64,000 nucleotides of DNA from Escherichia phage vB_EcoM-UFV09: the sequence record MZ291552.2. One strand, written 5' to 3'. The notes under the pieces are model-generated. The model was not told the DNA's origin and made no database searches. It saw only the letters and a program-made list of their open reading frames with translations. Shown in pieces: positions 9,131-20,785 of the stretch (position 1 is the first letter of the stretch; each line of letters opens with the position of its first letter). A program made the translations under genes and the position numbers.

Positions 9131-9601
9131 TTAATCATGTTTCCACACCCCATCGGTATTTGACCAAAGTCGCTGATTATCTGATCCTCGCCACAGCTTT
9201 TTAGTCGGAAGATTTTTCTCATACTTCCCATCAATAATAACATCAACATATTTAAGCATTTCTAGTTGTTTAATATCTTCAAACTTATATCCTGTCCACA
9301 ACCAAATGCTTTTATTAGGATAAAGATTTTTAATAGTTTGAACCACAGAGTGAATCACGTCTCTGTTATCAGGATAGAGAGGGTCACCTCCAGTTATAGT
9401 TAATCCTTCTATATAATCATTATTCAAACATTCAATTAATTGTTCTAGTGTTTCACCAGTGAATGGAACGCCATTTCTAGCATTCCATGTTGATTTATTA
9501 TAACACCCTTCACATTTATGCAAACAACCTGTAACGAAAAGAACGACCCTGCATCCAGGGCCATTCACAAAATCACAGGGATAAAATCTATCGTAATTCA
9601 T
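9131..9601 (-). CDS. nrdG: Anaerobic ribonucleotide reductase activating protein (radical SAM)
   Basis: 156 aa; CxxxCxxC cluster (GCLHKCEGC); overlaps nrdD stop. Confidence 0.92.
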   Translation of the reverse strand: MNYDRFYPCDFVNGPGCRVVLFVTGCLHKCEGCYNKSTWNARNGVPFTGETLEQLIECLNNDYIEGLTITGGDPLYPDNRDVIHSVVQTIKNLYPNKSIWLWTGYKFEDIKQLEMLKYVDVIIDGKYEKNLPTKKLWRGSDNQRLWSNTDGVWKHD

Positions 9602-13003: not shown

Positions 13004-13174
13004 TTAATTTCGCAATTTATTAAGTTCTTCATCATCAATCCAGGATTCTAATCCTGATGGCAGGGCACATTCAATTTCCCAAAGAAGTTCTTCAATTTTC
13101 TGAAGACGATCTAGTTCTTCGGCTGGAATAGTAACCATTGACGGAGCTCGTGATACATTAATATCGTAAATCAT
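13004..13174 (-). CDS. Small ORF, 56 aa (MIYDINVSRAPSMVTIPAEEL...), not in the ORF track
   Basis: ATG directly after the upstream stop (TAA-AT-ATG); fills an otherwise empty gap. Confidence 0.35.
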   Translation of the reverse strand: MIYDINVSRAPSMVTIPAEELDRLQKIEELLWEIECALPSGLESWIDDEELNKLRN

Positions 13175-13176
13175 AT

Positions 13177-13392
13177 TTACCCCAATTTAACCATACAATC
13201 GCCGTATTTCCACTTAGAAATAGACTTTTCACCATTAGAATAATAAACTTCGAGTTTAGCACGATTATTTTTAATTTGAATAACCTTTGCTGTCATCAAA
13301 GTTCCATACCCATAATAAACTGCAACTTCATCACCTACATATACCGCGCTTCCGCGGTAATCATGGATATAATCAGTTCCTTCGAGAATCAT
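13177..13392 (-). CDS. Hypothetical protein, 71 aa
   Basis: ORF; start overlaps nrdC stop. Confidence 0.5.
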   Translation of the reverse strand: MILEGTDYIHDYRGSAVYVGDEVAVYYGYGTLMTAKVIQIKNNRAKLEVYYSNGEKSISKWKYGDCMVKLG

Positions 13393-13653: not shown

Positions 13654-13896
13654 TTATTCCTTAATTCCTAGTACTTGTTTAAAAGTCTCGTCGTAATCAA
13701 GACTTTGGCCCGTTTGTTCTTTATGTTTGTATATAATATCACTTACTTCTGATAGCATATTTTTATATGAACGAGTTAAAGCAGATTTAAGCACGCTGTA
13801 TCTATCAGGAAATTTACCGTGTTCATTATAATAAGCTATTGCTAATTCACGGACTGCCTTTTCAGCAGCCTCCATATATTCTTTACGCTTGGTCAT
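13654..13896 (-). CDS. Hypothetical protein, about 80 aa (nrdC.1 position)
   Basis: Start trimmed to the ATG abutting the upstream stop (TAAA-ATG). Confidence 0.45.
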
Positions 13897-13897
13897 T

Positions 13898-14287
13898 TTA
13901 ATCCAAAATATTATTAGGCATTGGTTGAACACTCACAAGTTCTTTAAAGAACTCAGTAGAGTCAGGCAATTTAACCATTTCCGGAGCATGCTTACTGAAT
14001 TTATGTTTACATTGACGGCATTTATATTCAAGCTCTGGTTTACGCCAGTTAATCAATTGAACTTGTTCAGTACCGCATTCAGGGCAATTAGGAACGTTTT
14101 TAGAAGCTCTTTCACGTCGTTCAACCATAGCCATAATAGCATCCCATGCTGGAGGTTTAAAATCTAAATCGTCGCAGCCGTGAATCTTTCCACGCATTTC
14201 CATATCATCTTCCTCACCAGCCATAATAATTTTAATTAGACTAGAATTACTTGAAGCTGCAATGTCTTCTAATAAACGCTTTTTCAT
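13898..14287 (-). CDS. Hypothetical protein with C4 zinc ribbon, 129 aa
   Basis: CPECG...CRQCK motif. Confidence 0.5.
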
Positions 14288-15210
14288 TTCAATACCTCAA
14301 TAGCATTACGTAAACCATTTGCTTTTGCGTTAAGAGATTTTAACAATTTGGTGTGTTCTGCAATTTGGGCTTCAACTTCAATCAAACGGGCATTGAGATA
14401 TTCGCGTTCTTCTTTCATAGTATCATTCCCATGATTGGGTTTTGGTGCAGATTTAAATTCACTAGGGTCCTTTAACTTAATAACAAATTTAGTTTCAAAC
14501 AGTGAAAGACCATAATTCGTATTATCATCAAAGGATTTAACTACATCCATATTAGATAATAACTCATGCAAATTATAAGACAAAGAACTAATAGTTTCAT
14601 TGTGTTTATTAGCTTCGCGTGGTTTCATATACGGAAGATTTTTATATATCTCATGCGGAGCACAAATGATAATTGACAATTCAAATTGTCCATTCTGGGA
14701 CGATGGAGTGAATTTAGCCGTAACCCAGTCTTTTACATTCACATTAATAGTACGGTTATCACCATGACAAAACAATCTACGAGAATGCTTAAAAAGCATA
14801 TTCACGTTATTATTGAATTCGTGTGAAAATTCACTGGCAAATTTTTCTTTACTATCTTTAGAAAACCATTCTTCTAAATAAGTTCTTTTCACGTCGTTAA
14901 TAATATTAAATGTAACAACATTAGCATTTGATACATTAGTCTCAATGTAGCTTGGATACATAAATTTTTTAACATTATTAACAGCTATCACAGAAGATAG
15001 TAATCGGGAACGTTTGAACCACTCGAGCAAAGAACCAAGAGAATGTGAATACGCGTTTTGCGTATCTTTACAAATATGGTTTTCCCATCCAATATAGTCT
15101 AAAAAATCACGAAGAATATTATTGATTACTGCTCTGTGTCCTATCTGATAATTACGATGTTTAGTAATAAGACTGTCAAAATAATCAATATAATGTTTAC
15201 GAGTTTTCAT
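14284..15210 (-). CDS. Paralog-family protein 1 (308 aa) with C-terminal coiled-coil tail
   Basis: Shares a SRLLS-type motif and heptad-rich C-terminus with the next three ORFs. Confidence 0.55.
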   Translation of the reverse strand: MKTRKHYIDYFDSLITKHRNYQIGHRAVINNILRDFLDYIGWENHICKDTQNAYSHSLGSLLEWFKRSRLLSSVIAVNNVKKFMYPSYIETNVSNANVVTFNIINDVKRTYLEEWFSKDSKEKFASEFSHEFNNNVNMLFKHSRRLFCHGDNRTINVNVKDWVTAKFTPSSQNGQFELSIIICAPHEIYKNLPYMKPREANKHNETISSLSYNLHELLSNMDVVKSFDDNTNYGLSLFETKFVIKLKDPSEFKSAPKPNHGNDTMKEEREYLNARLIEVEAQIAEHTKLLKSLNAKANGLRNAIEVLK

Positions 15211-15264
15211 GTTCTTCTCACTTGGTTAATGATTTATACTCCGAGCCATCCTTGGCTTTAAATT

Positions 15265-16266
15265 TTACTTAATTAACTGTAAAGCTTGTTCAAGACGATC
15301 AAGACGATTAACGGATTCTTCCCAAATCTTTTTAGCCTTCTCATATTCTTTCTGTGCTTTATTAGAAATTTCTAGAGCTCCTTTATAAGCTTTTTCTAAT
15401 GCAATAATTTCTGGACGAATTTCTACCGGTTCAGGCGAATCATCAAGATTATCCATTAGTTCCTCAAGGGTAGTTTCTTCTTTAGGGGTATTCACAATTT
15501 CTTCGCATTTTTGTTGGTAAATTTCTTTATCAGTCGGTGAATACGCACATTTCACTTCACGAAGACTAACTACAATTTTGTATCCTTCCCAACCACACAT
15601 ATTCTTAAAAGGATATGTATGAATATTTTCTACTGTTTCCATACAAAGTAATGCAGTCTCTAACTGACGAGTTATAGTGCTAGCAATTGAGAAAAATTTA
15701 TTAATATTCTTTTGGTTAGCGTTTGGTGTAAAAAATCCATAATTCACAAAAATAGCTACTTTATTTTCGTCAAGCTCATATTCTTTTACGATAATCATAT
15801 CAGAAGCCAAAGGATGAATTTGACGATAATCGCCATAACATAATTTAGAAGCTGATTTTAGAATTTGTCCTTTGAAAAGTCTGAAATTACTAATCCAACG
15901 ACGAGTAAAAATATTCTCAGGGTCTTCTTTATTATTAAGATGATAAGAATTAACATCACCGAACCAATTGTATCCTACTACATTTTTAGTTCGTTTAATT
16001 TCTTTCCCAAATTTACCAAGAATATCTCTGTTAACTAAATATGAAAGAAGACGAGACCCTTTAAAGGTTTCCTTAATATCATCTTTATCTGCACGACTAG
16101 AAATTTTATGAACTTCATGAATAAATTTGCTGGAAGAAACAATGCTTGCATCAGTATTATTGAGCCATTGATTGATAATAGAAATAACACTATTCTGACT
16201 AGACATAGGTTTAACTTTATCATCAATAACGCTATTGAATGATTTGATATATTCGTTGCGAGTCAT
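15265..16266 (-). CDS. Paralog-family protein 2 (about 333 aa) with C-terminal coiled coil
   Basis: Start set at the ATG with GAGGAG Shine-Dalgarno (MTRNEYIKSF...); early promoter just upstream. Confidence 0.55.
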   Translation of the reverse strand: MTRNEYIKSFNSVIDDKVKPMSSQNSVISIINQWLNNTDASIVSSSKFIHEVHKISSRADKDDIKETFKGSRLLSYLVNRDILGKFGKEIKRTKNVVGYNWFGDVNSYHLNNKEDPENIFTRRWISNFRLFKGQILKSASKLCYGDYRQIHPLASDMIIVKEYELDENKVAIFVNYGFFTPNANQKNINKFFSIASTITRQLETALLCMETVENIHTYPFKNMCGWEGYKIVVSLREVKCAYSPTDKEIYQQKCEEIVNTPKEETTLEELMDNLDDSPEPVEIRPEIIALEKAYKGALEISNKAQKEYEKAKKIWEESVNRLDRLEQALQLIK

Positions 16267-16294
16267 ATTAATCTCCTCAGTAGAAAGTAAGAAC

Positions 16295-16324
16295 ATTATA
16301 CCACATCCTTGTGGCGAAGTAAAC
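16295..16324 (-). promoter_or_regulatory. Early promoter: GTTTAC -35, TGG-TATAAT extended -10
   Basis: Minus-strand reading gtttacttcgccacaaggatgtggtataat. Confidence 0.55.
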
Positions 16325-17343
16325 TAGTTTAGTGCATTTAGTGCATTGTTCAATTTAGAACGTTGCTTTGTCAGATTTTGAACCCTTGACTGAGCTTGTT
16401 CTAACACCTTTTCAGCTTCTAGCACTTCATTGGTCGCTTTAATGAGTTCAGCATCTACTGCCTTAAGAGACTTCTCAATCGCGTCAGCGTGCCATTTTTC
16501 TACAGGTTTAAAATTTGAATTTTCAGTAGGAAGAAAATTCACTTTATTAAATTTCCATGCATCTTTATTACCTGAGCTATACATCCAAAATTTAGGATCG
16601 TTTGATGAGCAATTAGATAAATTTAAGTTATCTTGTACTTCCTGCTTTTTCTCTTGCGGGACTTCATCCTTTCTCAAAAAATCGTATTTAAATGAAACGA
16701 TCATATCAAGTTCATACGTTGTTGTATGTTCCCAATTTCGCTCAAAATGAGGTAAAATCTTAGACTGAACAGCGGCAACAACATCCATATACTTAAATGC
16801 TTCTGTCAACTGTGATTTAAGGCATTCACAAATTGAAAGAGAATTTTTTGTATTAGGCTTAAAGCTAATTCGTGCAGTTCTATTATTTTCTTTTAACGGT
16901 CTTACTTCCATCTGAAGAGTATAACCATCAAATTTCAGGTTCTTTAAGTTAATGTCAGAACCTTTTAATCGACTAGCAGTAGACAAAATTTGCTTTAATT
17001 GTTTACGGAATAAAGCAATAAATCTCCATTCAAGACGATAATGATTTGGATTAAAAAATCCTGTTGATAAATCAACCTTACTCTGACCAACGCCTTGAAC
17101 AAATAGAGGATTTTTATAATCAATAGTTTTACAGAAATCGGTGAGCTGCTCACGAGCAGTCATTTGTGTAATATATCCCGCTTTACTAAAATGACGTAAC
17201 CATTCACTGCTATTCATATACTTAAAGTGAATGGAACTATTAACTCTATCAGGGTCTAAATTATTTTGGCACAAAAATGTCATAACATTACGGGTATAGC
17301 TAGCATTACGAACCATATCTTCAATTTGAGAACGAGTTTTCAT
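16324..17343 (-). CDS. Paralog-family protein 3 (339 aa) with C-terminal coiled coil
   Basis: ORF; C-terminal heptad-rich helix. Confidence 0.55.
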   Translation of the reverse strand: MKTRSQIEDMVRNASYTRNVMTFLCQNNLDPDRVNSSIHFKYMNSSEWLRHFSKAGYITQMTAREQLTDFCKTIDYKNPLFVQGVGQSKVDLSTGFFNPNHYRLEWRFIALFRKQLKQILSTASRLKGSDINLKNLKFDGYTLQMEVRPLKENNRTARISFKPNTKNSLSICECLKSQLTEAFKYMDVVAAVQSKILPHFERNWEHTTTYELDMIVSFKYDFLRKDEVPQEKKQEVQDNLNLSNCSSNDPKFWMYSSGNKDAWKFNKVNFLPTENSNFKPVEKWHADAIEKSLKAVDAELIKATNEVLEAEKVLEQAQSRVQNLTKQRSKLNNALNALN

Positions 17344-17351
17344 AGTGTTCC

Positions 17352-18260
17352 TTAAGATTTAAGTAAATCAACAATTTTAATTAATTTTTCACGCTCAGAT
17401 TTAGCTTTACTACTCAATCCAGATAGTCTGAAAATTTCATCGTCATACTGTTGAATAGAAATATTTAGCTCTTCAATTTGCTTATTAAAATAATCAATTT
17501 GCTCAGAATGTTTTTCATTACTGCGAACTGGTATAGGGTTTGTAGGCAATTTAGTTGAACTAGATTCATCCGGGCGATAAATTAAAATACAACTTGAACC
17601 AATTGGACATTTTGCACCAGATGAATATTCTAATGTTCCGGCTTCTTTTAAAACTTCAAAAGCTAAACAGAGATGATGCCCCATATTAACATAATCTGTA
17701 GAGCGAGCTCTGATGTAATAATCATCTCCGCGAATACTAAATTTAAAGCATTTAAGGTCTTCTGTATTATTGGTCTTAAAAATCATTTGTTTATCTAGAC
17801 CTTTAGCTAATCGAGCGCCTAATGCTAATAATCGTCGTTGATTTTCCCACAAATCTGCGATCATTTGGTCAAATGATAATTTCGGCATTAGTCGACCATA
17901 AAGGTCATATCCTTTATTATAATTACGAAGGATTTCACTCGCGTTAATACGAGACAATGCTCCAATTTTATTAAGGGCTTTCATAATGCGATTAGATAAA
18001 CCCATTCCAGACCCGTTTGTTCGCTGCAAATGTTTTTCTAATCCAAATCCAATATCAACTTTAAACTTATCTAAAATTTCTGCATGAACATCTCTGTCAA
18101 TAACATTCAAATCCAAAGTTGGGTTAAATCTATGAAAAAATTTATCTGGCTCTCCACGACGAAGTACAGTCCATTCATTCATTTTTTTATTAACTAAAGA
18201 TTTAATTACTGTATTGACATTATTAATTACTACTGACATATTTTCCTCACTCAATTTCAA
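17352..18260 (-). CDS. Paralog-family protein 4 (302 aa) with C-terminal coiled coil
   Basis: ORF; C-terminal heptad-rich helix. Confidence 0.55.
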   Translation of the reverse strand: MKLSEENMSVVINNVNTVIKSLVNKKMNEWTVLRRGEPDKFFHRFNPTLDLNVIDRDVHAEILDKFKVDIGFGLEKHLQRTNGSGMGLSNRIMKALNKIGALSRINASEILRNYNKGYDLYGRLMPKLSFDQMIADLWENQRRLLALGARLAKGLDKQMIFKTNNTEDLKCFKFSIRGDDYYIRARSTDYVNMGHHLCLAFEVLKEAGTLEYSSGAKCPIGSSCILIYRPDESSSTKLPTNPIPVRSNEKHSEQIDYFNKQIEELNISIQQYDDEIFRLSGLSSKAKSEREKLIKIVDLLKS

Positions 18261-18654
18261 TTTTACTAAATATACAGAATATGATGGAAAAGACTATATA
18301 AGCACCACAAACAGATTGAACTAATACCATTCCAAAGAACCAAACAATATTATCAAACCATGTCTGTTTTACGTCGAAAGGACGTAAACTTACAGTAATA
18401 TTATCACCTTTTTCTATTGAAGAATACATCTCTGGGGAAATATATTCACTAAATCTATAACCGTCTTTGAGTTCATATACAGCAATAAACGATAAACTAG
18501 ACCCCTTTCCTTGTGTTCCTGTAATAGTATTAACTACAGTAACATCATAATCTTTATAATGCATATAATCATTAATTGCGTAATAACCATATGCAACTAC
18601 TACACATAAACAACATATCAATAAATTCAATCTTTTAATTATCAACTGTTTCAT
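18247..18654 (-). CDS. Membrane protein, 135 aa (N- and C-terminal hydrophobic helices)
   Basis: Hydrophobic segments LICCLCVVVAYGYYAI and FFGMVLVQSVCGAYIVFSIIFCIF. Confidence 0.5.
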   Translation of the reverse strand: MKQLIIKRLNLLICCLCVVVAYGYYAINDYMHYKDYDVTVVNTITGTQGKGSSLSFIAVYELKDGYRFSEYISPEMYSSIEKGDNITVSLRPFDVKQTWFDNIVWFFGMVLVQSVCGAYIVFSIIFCIFSKIEIE

Positions 18655-18683
18655 AATAATCTCAATTAAAAGGGCTTAGAACC

Positions 18684-18708
18684 ATTATACCATCCTTGGT
18701 ATAAAGCG
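18684..18708 (-). promoter_or_regulatory. Candidate middle (MotA-box) promoter: GCTTTA box about 12 bp upstream of TATAAT
   Basis: Minus-strand reading cgctttataccaaggatggtataatgg. Confidence 0.3.
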
Positions 18709-18709
18709 G

Positions 18710-19237
18710 TTATGCGAGTACCGTCTTTAACCGTTCTTCAAACTTCCGAAGAGTATTCTGGCGTTCAGCTCTTTGCTTTTTGTAAGTTTCAATACGCTCT
18801 GAAATGAGAGTGTATCGTTCATTTACTGATTCTTTCATAAAATCAGGAATTTCACGAGAAGCTTTAATCTCGTCAAATTTATCAATAACAGCTTGCTCTT
18901 CAGCAATTAAGTTATCATACATCAAAATATCTTTCTTGATGAACTCAATATCTTCTTGAGTTACACGAGATAATTTAAATGCTTTATCCTTTTTGTACTG
19001 TTCGTTAGTATCACGAGACCAGTGTAATGTACGATTTTTATTCGTATTCTTATAAATTTCTACAATACCAATATCATCAATAATAACGATCCAATTCCAA
19101 CGGGATTTGTAAATTTGTCCTCCATCAACTGTGATTTCACCTCCGATTGAGATGTCATTAAAGAACTTGCTTTGTGCTTCTGATTTAAATTTACCATCGT
19201 TGTAATTTACCAAGTTGAAAATATCTTTAGCGTTCAT
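18710..19237 (-). CDS. Hypothetical protein, about 175 aa
   Basis: Start trimmed to MNAKDIF with GGAGG Shine-Dalgarno; the ORF-track N-terminus is read-through of the promoter. Confidence 0.5.
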   Translation of the reverse strand: MNAKDIFNLVNYNDGKFKSEAQSKFFNDISIGGEITVDGGQIYKSRWNWIVIIDDIGIVEIYKNTNKNRTLHWSRDTNEQYKKDKAFKLSRVTQEDIEFIKKDILMYDNLIAEEQAVIDKFDEIKASREIPDFMKESVNERYTLISERIETYKKQRAERQNTLRKFEERLKTVLA

Positions 19238-20764: not shown

Positions 20765-20782
20765 AGGGAGCCCGAAGGCTCC
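20765..20782 (-). terminator. Stem-loop GGGAGCC-cgaa-GGCTCCC downstream of the nucleotidyltransferase gene
   Basis: Perfect 7-bp inverted repeat. Confidence 0.5.
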
Positions 20783-20785
20783 CTA

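What the first reader, a model, noticed from the sequence alone, without database searches (positions are those of the whole stretch)
14284..18260. Tandem four-member paralog family with C-terminal coiled-coil tails
Four consecutive minus-strand ORFs (308, about 333, 339 and 302 aa) share a domain layout: a divergent globular N-terminal region with a recurring SRLLS-like motif, ending in a 40-60-aa amphipathic heptad-rich helix. Tandem diversified paralogs in a phage accessory region suggest a family under diversifying selection, for example specificity variants of a host-interaction or anti-defence protein, or oligomerising scaffolds.
Basis: seen in the sequence. Interest (0 to 1): 0.45.

Follow-up and report, generated by a model that had tools for sequence, protein, structure and literature searches.

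The report
T4 nrdC.3–nrdC.6 anti-defence paralog family
Four neighbouring, non-essential early genes of a T4-like phage (nrdC.3, nrdC.4, nrdC.5, nrdC.6) are very old, fast-diverging copies of one protein design, a variable globular head on a conserved coiled-coil tail; one of them, nrdC.5, is already known to switch off the bacterial immune protein Dsr1, so the other three are good candidates for undiscovered immune-evasion genes.

Summary
The window is a Tequatrovirus, 100% identical to phage vB_EcoM-UFV05, and the four ORFs are T4 nrdC.3, nrdC.4, nrdC.5 and nrdC.6. Two need corrected starts: nrdC.4 is 333 aa and nrdC.6 is 295 aa.

Evidence for common descent:
- **nrdC.3 and nrdC.4:** clear paralogs (same PHROG and Pfam family; hhalign 98%).
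- **nrdC.5:** a distant homologue (hhalign 92-95%, and 88% with tails removed). Two independent AlphaFold models have the same order of secondary-structure elements.
- **nrdC.6:** the most remote member. It is linked mainly by fold (Foldseek E 5.5e-5) and by a bridging protein from phage PM2.

All four end in a single 44-58-residue helix with an unbroken heptad register. These are the four best C-terminal heptad scores among the window's 51 ORFs of at least 150 aa.

Published experiments show that T4 nrdC.5 (91.5% identical) overcomes Dsr1. Neighbouring genes counter Septu, OLD and (inferred) Druantia III.

nrdC.3-5 evolve faster than flanking genes, but gene-wide dN/dS stays below 1.

The parts
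14284..15210 (-). nrdC.3 orthologue, 308 aa: basic globular head (about residues 1-245), short linker, heptad tail.
   Evidence: ORF. phrog_1435, E 8.7e-100. Precomputed PF26897 on its homologues. 90.6% identical to T4 nrdC.3. hhalign 98.3% to the nrdC.4 family.
14287..14418 (-). nrdC.3 C-terminal heptad helix (residues 265-308).
   Evidence: Unbroken register, z 4.1, p 0.001 against shuffles. The tail is 86% conserved across orthologues against 63% for the head.
15265..16266 (-). nrdC.4 orthologue, 333 aa from the second ATG: alpha/beta head 1-258, acidic disordered linker 259-284, helix 285-332.
   Evidence: phrog_1435, E 2.6e-167. PF26897. AlphaFold2 mean pLDDT 82.8. Start-site reasoning from the sequence. 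89.8% identical to T4 nrdC.4.
15268..15414 (-). nrdC.4 C-terminal heptad helix (residues 285-333).
   Evidence: DSSP helix 285-332. Heptad z 3.7.
16295..16323 (-). Promoter-like site (TTTACT, 17 nt, TATAAT with an upstream TG) between the nrdC.5 stop and the nrdC.4 start.
   Evidence: 10 of 12 consensus match and sequence read. This is a consensus match only. The number of such sites in the region is no higher than in shuffles.
16324..17343 (-). nrdC.5 orthologue, 339 aa. This is the member with an experimentally shown function in T4 (anti-Dsr1).
   Evidence: Pfam DUF7235 (PF23882), E 9.1e-119, full length. phrog_2351. 91.5% identical to T4 nrdC.5. Function from PMC9391042. AlphaFold2 mean pLDDT 59.3, with core 100-222 at about 65-85, linker 223-279 disordered, helix 281-338.
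16327..16503 (-). nrdC.5 C-terminal heptad helix (residues 281-339).
   Evidence: DSSP helix 281-338. Heptad z 6.1. The tail alone matches generic coiled-coil repeats in an unrelated 630-aa protein.
17352..18239 (-). nrdC.6 orthologue, 295 aa from the ATG at 18239. This is the most remote member of the family.
   Evidence: phrog_2257, E 1.1e-152, from residue 8 of the 302-aa ORF. PF26899 on homologue P0101. 97.3% identical to T4 nrdC.6. The nrdC.4 model hits JS10 nrdC.6 in Foldseek, E 5.5e-5. Profile links.
17355..17522 (-). nrdC.6 C-terminal heptad helix (residues 240-295).
   Evidence: Heptad z 4.3. The tail is 71% conserved against 49% for the head, with an invariant DDEIFRLSGL stretch.
18710..19237 (-). 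Context, not a family member: nrdC.8 orthologue, 175 aa, also with a helical heptad-like C-terminus.
   Evidence: No profile similarity to the family (P >= 0.1). By position and length (528 bp) it is the counterpart of bas37_0203, reported as an inhibitor of Druantia type III.
13654..13896 (-). Context: nrdC.1 orthologue (98.8% identical to T4), reported as a Septu inhibitor.
   Evidence: identity; bioRxiv 10.1101/2025.11.20.689424.

Best explanation
The four genes are ancient, strongly diverged tandem paralogs in the nrdC to nrdC.11 anti-defence island of T-even phages.

Each encodes a modular protein of about 34-40 kDa with three parts:
- a basic alpha/beta globular head, which varies fast;
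- a disordered linker;
- a single C-terminal helix of about 45-58 residues with coiled-coil heptads, which is the best-conserved part within each orthologue group.

Shown:
- Homology of nrdC.3, nrdC.4 and nrdC.5, and a shared fold with nrdC.6.
- The heptad tails.
- Non-essentiality on laboratory E. coli (published).
- Anti-Dsr1 activity of T4 nrdC.5 (published).

Inferred:
- The proteins are made early in infection.
- They self-associate through the tail.
- The head binds and blocks a host immune protein directly.
- For nrdC.5 the target would be Dsr1, a SIR2 NADase whose TPR sensor is reported to be triggered by the major capsid protein. Blocking would work in the manner of DSAD1, which blocks DSR2.
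- Each paralog, and each divergent allele, is tuned to a different defence system or defence variant.
For: **Identity of the genes:**

**Homology:**
- nrdC.3 and nrdC.4 share PHROG 1435 and PF26897; hhalign 98.3%.
- nrdC.3/4 vs nrdC.5: 92-95% over 250 collinear columns; 88%, P 3.1e-6 for heads alone.
- On that alignment the DSSP strings of the two independent AlphaFold models agree at 67% of positions, against 29-58% when shifted.
- Both models hit the same Erwinia phage Cronus and Serratia phage PS2 proteins.
- nrdC.6: Foldseek E 5.5e-5, the PM2 bridge, and P about 7e-5 after adding the bridge.
- Negative controls: P >= 0.1.

**Architecture:**. Tails are more conserved than heads in all four orthologue groups.

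**Function:**
- nrdC.5 rescues a T4 deletion mutant on cells carrying dsr1 (PMC9391042).
- The Dsr1 trigger is the major capsid protein (PMC12803255).
- Neighbouring genes nrdC.1, gp49.2 and the nrdC.8 counterpart are anti-defence genes.
- All four genes are non-essential in T4 transposon mapping.

**Fast evolution:**

**Restricted range:** only 21 representatives among 1.84 billion proteins match nrdC.5 and nrdC.6. Every significant fold match (E <= 0.001) that carries an organism name is to a T4-like phage.
Against: - Only one of the four proteins has a demonstrated anti-defence function.
- The mechanism of nrdC.5 is unknown; no binding data exist in the papers I could read.
- In the three T4 HIDEN-SEQ comparisons I read, insertions in nrdC.3-6 were neutral (adjusted p = 1). 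Of those three, I could identify only the rIIA/rIIB-dependent one. The preprint's main text names only nrdC.1 from this cluster.
- dN/dS is below 1 gene-wide.
- The nrdC.6 link rests on one Foldseek hit plus weak profile signals. With tails removed, P is 0.0037 to nrdC.5 and 0.1 to nrdC.3/4.
- The nrdC.5 model is of low confidence (mean pLDDT 59.3).
- Oligomerisation by the tail is inferred from sequence periodicity only. The nrdC.3 and nrdC.6 tails each contain a glycine.
- The heads are basic (pI 8.9-9.5), which would also fit nucleic-acid binding.
Confidence: 0.55

Rival explanations
1. The paralogy is real but function is not shared. Only NrdC.5 is an anti-defence protein. NrdC.3, NrdC.4 and NrdC.6 are early host-takeover or regulatory proteins, for example basic nucleic-acid-binding or host-protein-binding factors, that reuse the same head-and-coiled-coil scaffold.
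For: - The heads are basic, pI 8.9-9.5.
- nrdC.6 is under ordinary purifying selection within Tequatrovirus (dN/dS 0.04-0.17).
- nrdC.4 and nrdC.6 are retained in every T4-like contig examined, as expected for a housekeeping accessory role.
- Insertions in nrdC.3-6 were neutral in the defence screens I read.
Against: - The genes are dispensable on K-12.
- They sit among four genes with proven or reported anti-defence activity.
- nrdC.3, nrdC.4 and nrdC.5 diverge several times faster than flanking genes, and nrdC.3 shows allele replacement. This pattern is typical of arms-race genes.
Confidence: 0.25
2. NrdC.5 defeats Dsr1 indirectly rather than by binding it. It might mask or delay the trigger (the major capsid protein), or it might buffer NAD+ loss. 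In that case the family's common activity would concern a phage or host process, not immune proteins as such.
For: - The Dsr1 sensor is reported to be triggered by the major capsid protein.
- The only experiment is genetic rescue.
Against: - No NAD-metabolism domain was found in Pfam or PHROGs or by fold search.
- The published text calls nrdC.5 an early gene, and an early gene product would precede capsid protein synthesis.
- Known inhibitors of the sister system DSR2 bind the sensor directly (abstracts listed).
Confidence: 0.15
3. The family has three members, not four. NrdC.6 is unrelated and shares only a convergent layout (a globular head plus a coiled-coil tail). nrdC.8 has such a layout without being homologous.
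For: - Direct profile comparisons of nrdC.6 with the others give probabilities of 0.3-6%.
- Heads alone give P 0.0037 to nrdC.5 and 0.1 to nrdC.3/4.
- nrdC.8 shows that heptad tails occur on unrelated neighbours.
- Pfam files the proteins under three separate families.
Against: - Foldseek links the confident nrdC.4 model to JS10 nrdC.6 with probability 1.0, E 5.5e-5.
- PM2_092 matches the nrdC.6 profile (P 4.3e-6, which survives correction for 132 tests). It occupies the nrdC.3/4 slot next to nrdC.2.
- A 309-aa PM2 protein is a top fold match of nrdC.4 (E 7.6e-8).
- The weak profile alignments always fall on the same collinear motif pair.
Confidence: 0.15

Closest known systems
T4 NrdC.5 (Pfam DUF7235, PF23882), the anti-Dsr1 factor of Srikant et al. 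2022 (PMC9391042)
   Same: The window ORF 16324-17343 is its orthologue: 91.5% identity, a full-length DUF7235 match, and the same position between nrdC.6 and nrdC.4.
   Different: Nothing differs for that ORF. The other three ORFs are only remote paralogs (no more than about 20% identity). Their targets, if any, are unknown.
NrdC.3/NrdC.4 family (Pfam PF26897, PHROG 1435) and the NrdC.6 family (PF26899, PHROG 2257), both of unknown function
   Same: The window proteins are full-length members of these families.
   Different: The databases treat these and DUF7235 as three unrelated families. The evidence here joins them into one superfamily with a shared head, linker and coiled-coil tail.
DSAD1 of phage SPbeta, inhibitor of DSR2
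   Same: It is the functional analogy for the proposed mechanism: a phage protein that neutralises a defence-associated sirtuin by occupying its sensor region (abstracts listed).
Tail terminator and tail completion proteins (lambda gpU-like alpha/beta sandwich)
   Same: These are the best, though weak, fold matches of the head: a helix, hairpin, helix, hairpin sandwich with about 90-110 residues aligned.

Membership tests
NrdC.3/NrdC.4 family (PF26897 / PHROG 1435) | A significant full-length match to the family model. | tested here: met
   For nrdC.3 and nrdC.4: phrog_1435 E 8.7e-100 and 2.6e-167, and PF26897 on all close homologues. nrdC.5 and nrdC.6 do not match this model and are related only at profile-profile or fold level.
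NrdC.5 / DUF7235 (PF23882), anti-Dsr1 | A full-length match above the Pfam gathering score, and orthology to T4 nrdC.5. | tested here: met
   396.9 bits against a cut-off of 30, covering residues 1-339. 91.5% identity to T4 at the syntenic position.
NrdC.5 / DUF7235 (PF23882), anti-Dsr1 | Restores phage growth on cells expressing Dsr1. | not testable with these tools
   Shown for the T4 protein only (PMC9391042). The window allele differs at about 8.5% of residues.
Proposed NrdC.3-6 superfamily | Homologous globular head (collinear profile match and shared fold). | tested here: met
   For nrdC.3, nrdC.4 and nrdC.5: (heads alone 88%, P 3.1e-6). Both AlphaFold models share fold-search hits.
Proposed NrdC.3-6 superfamily | The same head in nrdC.6. 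| tested here: inconclusive
   Foldseek E 5.5e-5, probability 1.0. PM2 bridge, P 4.3e-6. P about 7e-5 with the bridge added. However, direct profile probabilities are 0.3-6%, and heads alone give P 0.0037 to 0.1.
Coiled-coil proteins | An uninterrupted heptad repeat with hydrophobic a/d positions over at least 4 heptads in a predicted helix. | tested here: met
   6-8 heptads in one register in each tail, z 3.7-6.1, with power at period 3.5 above that at 3.6. Single long helices in both models.
Coiled-coil proteins | Actual oligomerisation (dimer, trimer or hetero-oligomer). | not testable with these tools
   No multimer prediction or experiment was available.
DSAD1-like DSR inhibitors | Sequence or fold similarity to DSAD1. 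| tested here: not met
Tail terminator / tail completion fold | A strong structural match over the whole domain. | tested here: inconclusive

The most novel reading that the evidence does not exclude
The conserved coiled-coil tails might let the paralogs co-assemble, with each other or on a common partner, into a multi-headed early-infection complex. Each variable head would neutralise a different host immune sensor. The heads resemble virion neck and tail proteins, so they might act as decoys for sensors that recognise conserved phage structural proteins. New specificities would then arise by swapping heads onto a constant tail, as the head-swapped nrdC.5-tail protein on contig L018 hints.
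Probability: 0.1. Interest if true: 0.75.

Novelty: new member of a known kind. Interest (0 to 1): 0.45.

Why it matters
T4 is the best-studied phage, yet most of its early accessory genes have no known function. If NrdC.3, NrdC.4 and NrdC.6 are remote paralogs of the anti-Dsr1 protein NrdC.5, they become three concrete candidates for new immune-evasion genes.

The shared design also gives a direct experimental handle. Head swaps, tail deletions and oligomer tests can address how NrdC.5 works, and so how Dsr1 can be blocked.

The result also merges three database 'unknown function' families into one. It further suggests, from fold matches only, that the design is widespread in T4-like phages of Acinetobacter, Klebsiella, Erwinia, Pectobacterium, Serratia and Yersinia.

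Tried and rejected
- **Pairwise BLASTP of the window proteins.** Only nrdC.3/nrdC.4 was significant, so I moved to profiles.
- **Pfam, PHROGs and PDB sequence search for a functional domain.** Only families of unknown function were found, and there were no PDB hits.
- **Concatenated nrdC.6+nrdC.5 query.** I tried this to save a capped homologue search. It returned one protein and wasted the last search. A two-sequence alignment of the window proteins worked instead.
- **Structure prediction with locus-derived alignments.** nrdC.5 therefore had to be modelled from 4 sequences, giving pLDDT 59. nrdC.6 could not be modelled at all.
- **Iterative hmmsearch over ORFs of 23 fetched loci.** This added only one Klebsiella phage protein and never reached nrdC.5 or nrdC.6. 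hhalign of single candidates was more sensitive.
- **nrdC.8 as a fifth member.** Rejected: P >= 0.1 against all profiles.
- **DNA-mimic idea.** Rejected because the heads are basic.
- **The head of the head-swapped protein P0115.** It has no match in 50,697 phage records, so an assembly chimera cannot be excluded.
- **Gene-wide positive selection.** Not found; dN/dS stays below 0.4.
- **HIDEN-SEQ supplement.** nrdC.3-6 were neutral in the three T4 comparisons I read. The later sheets were not read.

Full report
**What the region is**

The window is a T4-like phage genome. Bases 14000-18700 are 100% identical to Escherichia phage vB_EcoM-UFV05. They are 90-96% identical to about 500 other Tequatrovirus records.

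Annotation of phage KMB42 and of T4 itself places the four minus-strand ORFs as nrdC.3, nrdC.4, nrdC.5 and nrdC.6. They lie between nrdC.2 and nrdC.7 in the block from nrdC to nrdC.11. Identity to the T4 proteins is 90.6%, 89.8%, 91.5% and 97.3%.

Two starts need correcting:
- **nrdC.4:** the first ATG overlaps the -10 element of a promoter-like site (GTTTACT, 17 nt, TGGTATAAT). The second ATG, at 16266, follows a GAGGAG site. The protein is therefore 333 aa.
- **nrdC.6:** it starts at the ATG at 18239, behind a GAGGA site. That is also where orthologues and the PHROG model begin, giving 295 aa.

**Are the four proteins related?**

BLASTP supports only nrdC.3 vs nrdC.4 (25.6% identity over 168 residues, E 1.9e-4). 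All other pairs are non-significant.

*nrdC.3 and nrdC.4.* Family databases agree that they are paralogs. Both match PHROG 1435 full length, and their homologues carry Pfam PF26897. By contrast, nrdC.5 is Pfam DUF7235 / PHROG 2351, and nrdC.6 is PF26899 / PHROG 2257.

I built orthologue alignments from database hits and from 14 viral contigs. Profile-profile comparison of nrdC.4 vs nrdC.3 gives 98.3%, P 1.2e-14.

*nrdC.5.*
- nrdC.4 alone vs nrdC.5 is marginal: 21.7%, P 1e-3, though collinear over 256 columns.
- A merged nrdC.3/4 profile vs nrdC.5 gives 92-95%, P 5.5e-8 to 6.3e-7 over 250 collinear columns.
- With the coiled-coil tails cut off, the heads alone still give 88%, P 3.1e-6.
- The three proteins also share an N-terminal K-T-R-x-x-Y motif (MKTRKHYI, MTRNEYI, MKTRSQI; MNIKTRKEY in other genera).
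- Negative controls built the same way (nrdC.8, nrdC.10, nrdC.11) give P >= 0.1.

*Independent structural check.*
- The AlphaFold2 model of nrdC.4 has mean pLDDT 82.8.
- The model of nrdC.5 has mean pLDDT 59.3, with its core at about 65-85.
- Both have the same order of elements: long helix, beta-hairpin, long helix, beta-hairpin, disordered linker, one long terminal helix.
- On the sequence-derived alignment, their DSSP states agree at 67% of positions, against 29-58% when one is shifted.
- Both models hit the same proteins of Erwinia phage Cronus and Serratia phage PS2 in the viral structure library.

*nrdC.6.* This is the most remote member.
- Direct profile comparisons give probabilities of only 0.3-6%. 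They do, however, always align the same two motifs. 'G-x-LSR' of nrdC.6 aligns with 'GSRLLS' of nrdC.3/4. 'LALGARLAKGxDKQ' aligns with 'ILKSASKLCYGDYR' of nrdC.4 and 'ILSTASRLKGSD' of nrdC.5.
- The confident nrdC.4 model hits 'nrdC.6 [Escherichia phage JS10]' in Foldseek with E 5.5e-5, probability 1.0.
- I fetched the nrdC.11 to nrdC.2 region of five more distant phages and compared 33 candidate ORFs with each profile.
- PM2_092 is a 309-aa protein lying next to nrdC.2, in the slot of nrdC.3/4. It matches the nrdC.6 profile at 87%, P 4.3e-6. That is still significant after correction for 132 tests. It matches nrdC.5 at P 7e-4.
- A 309-aa PM2 protein (A0A0A0PZG4) is also one of the best fold matches of the nrdC.4 model (E 7.6e-8). 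That the two are the same protein is my inference from phage and length.
- Adding PM2_092 to the nrdC.6 profile raises its match to the merged nrdC.3/4/5 profile to 63%, P 6.8e-5. With heads alone it stays weak: P 0.0037 to nrdC.5 and 0.1 to nrdC.3/4.
- I regard nrdC.6 as a probable but not proven member.

**The tails**

Each protein ends in 44-58 residues that fit one uninterrupted heptad register. The a/d positions are mostly L, I, V or A. Scores are z 3.7-6.1 above composition-preserving shuffles (p <= 0.001), and periodicity is stronger at 3.5 than at 3.6 residues.

AlphaFold predicts a single helix there, preceded by a low-confidence linker. The linker is acidic in nrdC.4.

Among the 51 window ORFs of at least 150 aa, the four highest C-terminal heptad scores are exactly these four genes. 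nrdC.8 is fifth. Within each orthologue group the tail is better conserved than the head: 67 vs 53%, 86 vs 63%, 40 vs 33%, and 71 vs 49%. The nrdC.5 tail alone also picks up generic coiled-coil repeats in an unrelated protein. Whether the tails actually oligomerise could not be tested.

**The 'SRLLS' motif**

It is truly shared by nrdC.3 and nrdC.4, with LSR at the aligned place in nrdC.6. The similar-looking 'ASRLKG' of nrdC.5 belongs to a second motif that all four share.

**Function**

The literature is decisive for one member. Srikant et al. (eLife 2022, PMC9391042) found that a T4 deletion mutant could not grow on E. coli ECOR17 because of the defence-associated sirtuin Dsr1. [quoted passage not shown]

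A 2026 preprint reports that the TPR sensor of Dsr1 is triggered by the phage major capsid protein (PMC12803255).

The neighbourhood is an anti-defence island:
- nrdC.1 inhibits Septu (bioRxiv 10.1101/2025.11.20.689424).
- T6 gp49.2 inhibits OLD (PMC13096335).
- bas37_0203 inhibits Druantia III. By its position and its 528-bp length it is the nrdC.8 counterpart. This equivalence is my inference.

T4 transposon mapping classes nrdC.3 to nrdC.8 as non-essential on K-12. In the three T4 comparisons I read, insertions in nrdC.3-6 were neutral. Of those three, I could identify only one, in which rIIA and rIIB are strongly depleted.

**Evolution**

*Against T4.* nrdC.3, nrdC.4 and nrdC.5 are 90-92% identical. 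Most neighbours are 97-100%.

*Between genera.*

| Gene | Identity between genera |
|---|---|
| nrdC.5 | 20-28% |
| nrdC.4 | 40-53% |
| nrdC.6 | 45-51% |
| nrdC, nrdC.1, nrdC.8, nrdC.10, nrdC.11 | 64-85% |

*nrdC.3 distribution.* It is missing from ten non-Tequatrovirus contigs, where a single nrdC.4-like gene abuts nrdC.2. In phage records it occurs as three allele classes: at least 90% identical in 138 records, about 62% in 356 records, and about 56% in 161 records. The last class includes Mosigvirus HX01.

*Pairwise dN/dS (Nei-Gojobori).* It is 0.14-0.37 for nrdC.3-5, 0.04-0.17 for nrdC.6, and 0-0.13 for most neighbours. The exceptions are one nrdC pair at 0.24, one nrdC.8 pair at 0.19, and nrdC.7 at up to 0.49. 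This means faster evolution and allele replacement, but no gene-wide positive selection.

*Range.* The families are narrow. Only 21 representatives among 1.84 billion proteins match an nrdC.5+nrdC.6 profile. The fold is nonetheless seen in proteins of about 280-370 aa from T4-like phages of Acinetobacter, Klebsiella, Erwinia, Pectobacterium, Serratia and Yersinia, with a weak Aeromonas match (E 4.2e-2). Two Acj61 proteins with consecutive accession numbers are among these hits.

**Interpretation**

The best-supported reading is a modular anti-defence family. A fast-evolving head binds a host immune component. A flexible linker follows. A conserved coiled-coil tail gives oligomerisation or docking.

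What is shown: the architecture, the homology (firm for three members, probable for the fourth), dispensability, and the anti-Dsr1 role of nrdC.5. What is inferred: direct binding, tail oligomerisation, and anti-defence roles for nrdC.3, nrdC.4 and nrdC.6.

Rivals:
- Only nrdC.5 is an anti-defence protein.
- nrdC.5 acts indirectly, on the capsid trigger or on NAD+.
- nrdC.6 is convergent rather than homologous.

**Novelty**

The genes are long-known T4 ORFs, and the nrdC.5 function is published. I did not find the following points in the papers or family databases available here:
- the link that joins three database families into one superfamily;
- the shared head-linker-tail design;
- the nomination of three paralogs as anti-defence candidates.

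This is a useful, moderately interesting result rather than a new kind of system.

Noticed in passing
window 18710-19237 (-): nrdC.8 also ends in a heptad-like helical tail (z about 3-4) but shows no homology to the four-gene family. By position and length it matches bas37_0203, reported as an inhibitor of Druantia type III. The equivalence is inferred from gene order and the 528-bp length, not from a sequence comparison with Bas37.
   Followed up: partly
L018:120-641 (ENA contig k141_89665, 803 bp): A 173-aa protein (P0115) carries an unrelated N-terminal half fused to a near-identical nrdC.5 coiled-coil tail. It lies directly upstream of an nrdC.4 start, in the nrdC.5 slot. This could be a head replacement on a constant tail. 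However, the head has no match in 50,697 phage records, so an assembly chimera is not excluded.
   Followed up: partly
window 14284-15210 (-): nrdC.3 exists as sharply distinct allele classes in otherwise near-identical Tequatroviruses. The window and T4 carry the minority class (at least 90% identical, 138 records). 356 records carry an allele only about 62% identical, and 161 records (including Mosigvirus) carry one about 56% identical.
   Followed up: partly
window 13898-14287 (-): nrdC.2 is a zinc-ribbon protein (CxxC...CxxC). It is only 78% identical to T4 nrdC.2 while its neighbours are 98-100%. The longest ORF in this window encodes 129 aa against 104 in T4, so the N-terminal region may be extended. 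Its stop overlaps the start of nothing, but its start overlaps the nrdC.3 stop (ATGA-type coupling at 14284-14287).
   Followed up: no
window 13004-13392 (-): T4 gene 49.3 has no counterpart in the window (no tblastn hit). Two small ORFs of 56 and 71 aa occupy its place between the 49.2-like gene and nrdC, as in phage FelixPlatter (bas40_0193/0194). This looks like another cassette swap in the island.
   Followed up: no
window 20765-20784 (both strands): A strong G+C-rich hairpin (8 bp, 6 G-C pairs, followed by a T run on the minus strand) begins immediately after the nrdC.11 stop codon, upstream of the annotated nrdC.10 start. It is a likely terminator or RNA-processing site that separates nrdC.11 from the downstream genes.
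   Followed up: no
window 9134-9601 (-): The nrdG orthologue is only 80% identical to T4 NrdG, while the adjacent nrdD part is 99% identical. This suggests a recombination boundary or a different allele. T4's homing endonuclease genes in this area were not looked for in the window.
   Followed up: no
L019-L023 (PM2, Ac42, RB43, 44RR2.8t, Roth68): The block between nrdC.11 and nrdC.2 is highly plastic across T4-like genera. RB43 and 44RR2.8t carry NAD-salvage-type genes there or nearby (NMN adenylyltransferase/Nudix, and NAPRTase in 44RR2.8t only) instead of recognisable nrdC.3-6 homologues. This may be a different answer to NAD-depleting defences such as Dsr1.
   Followed up: no
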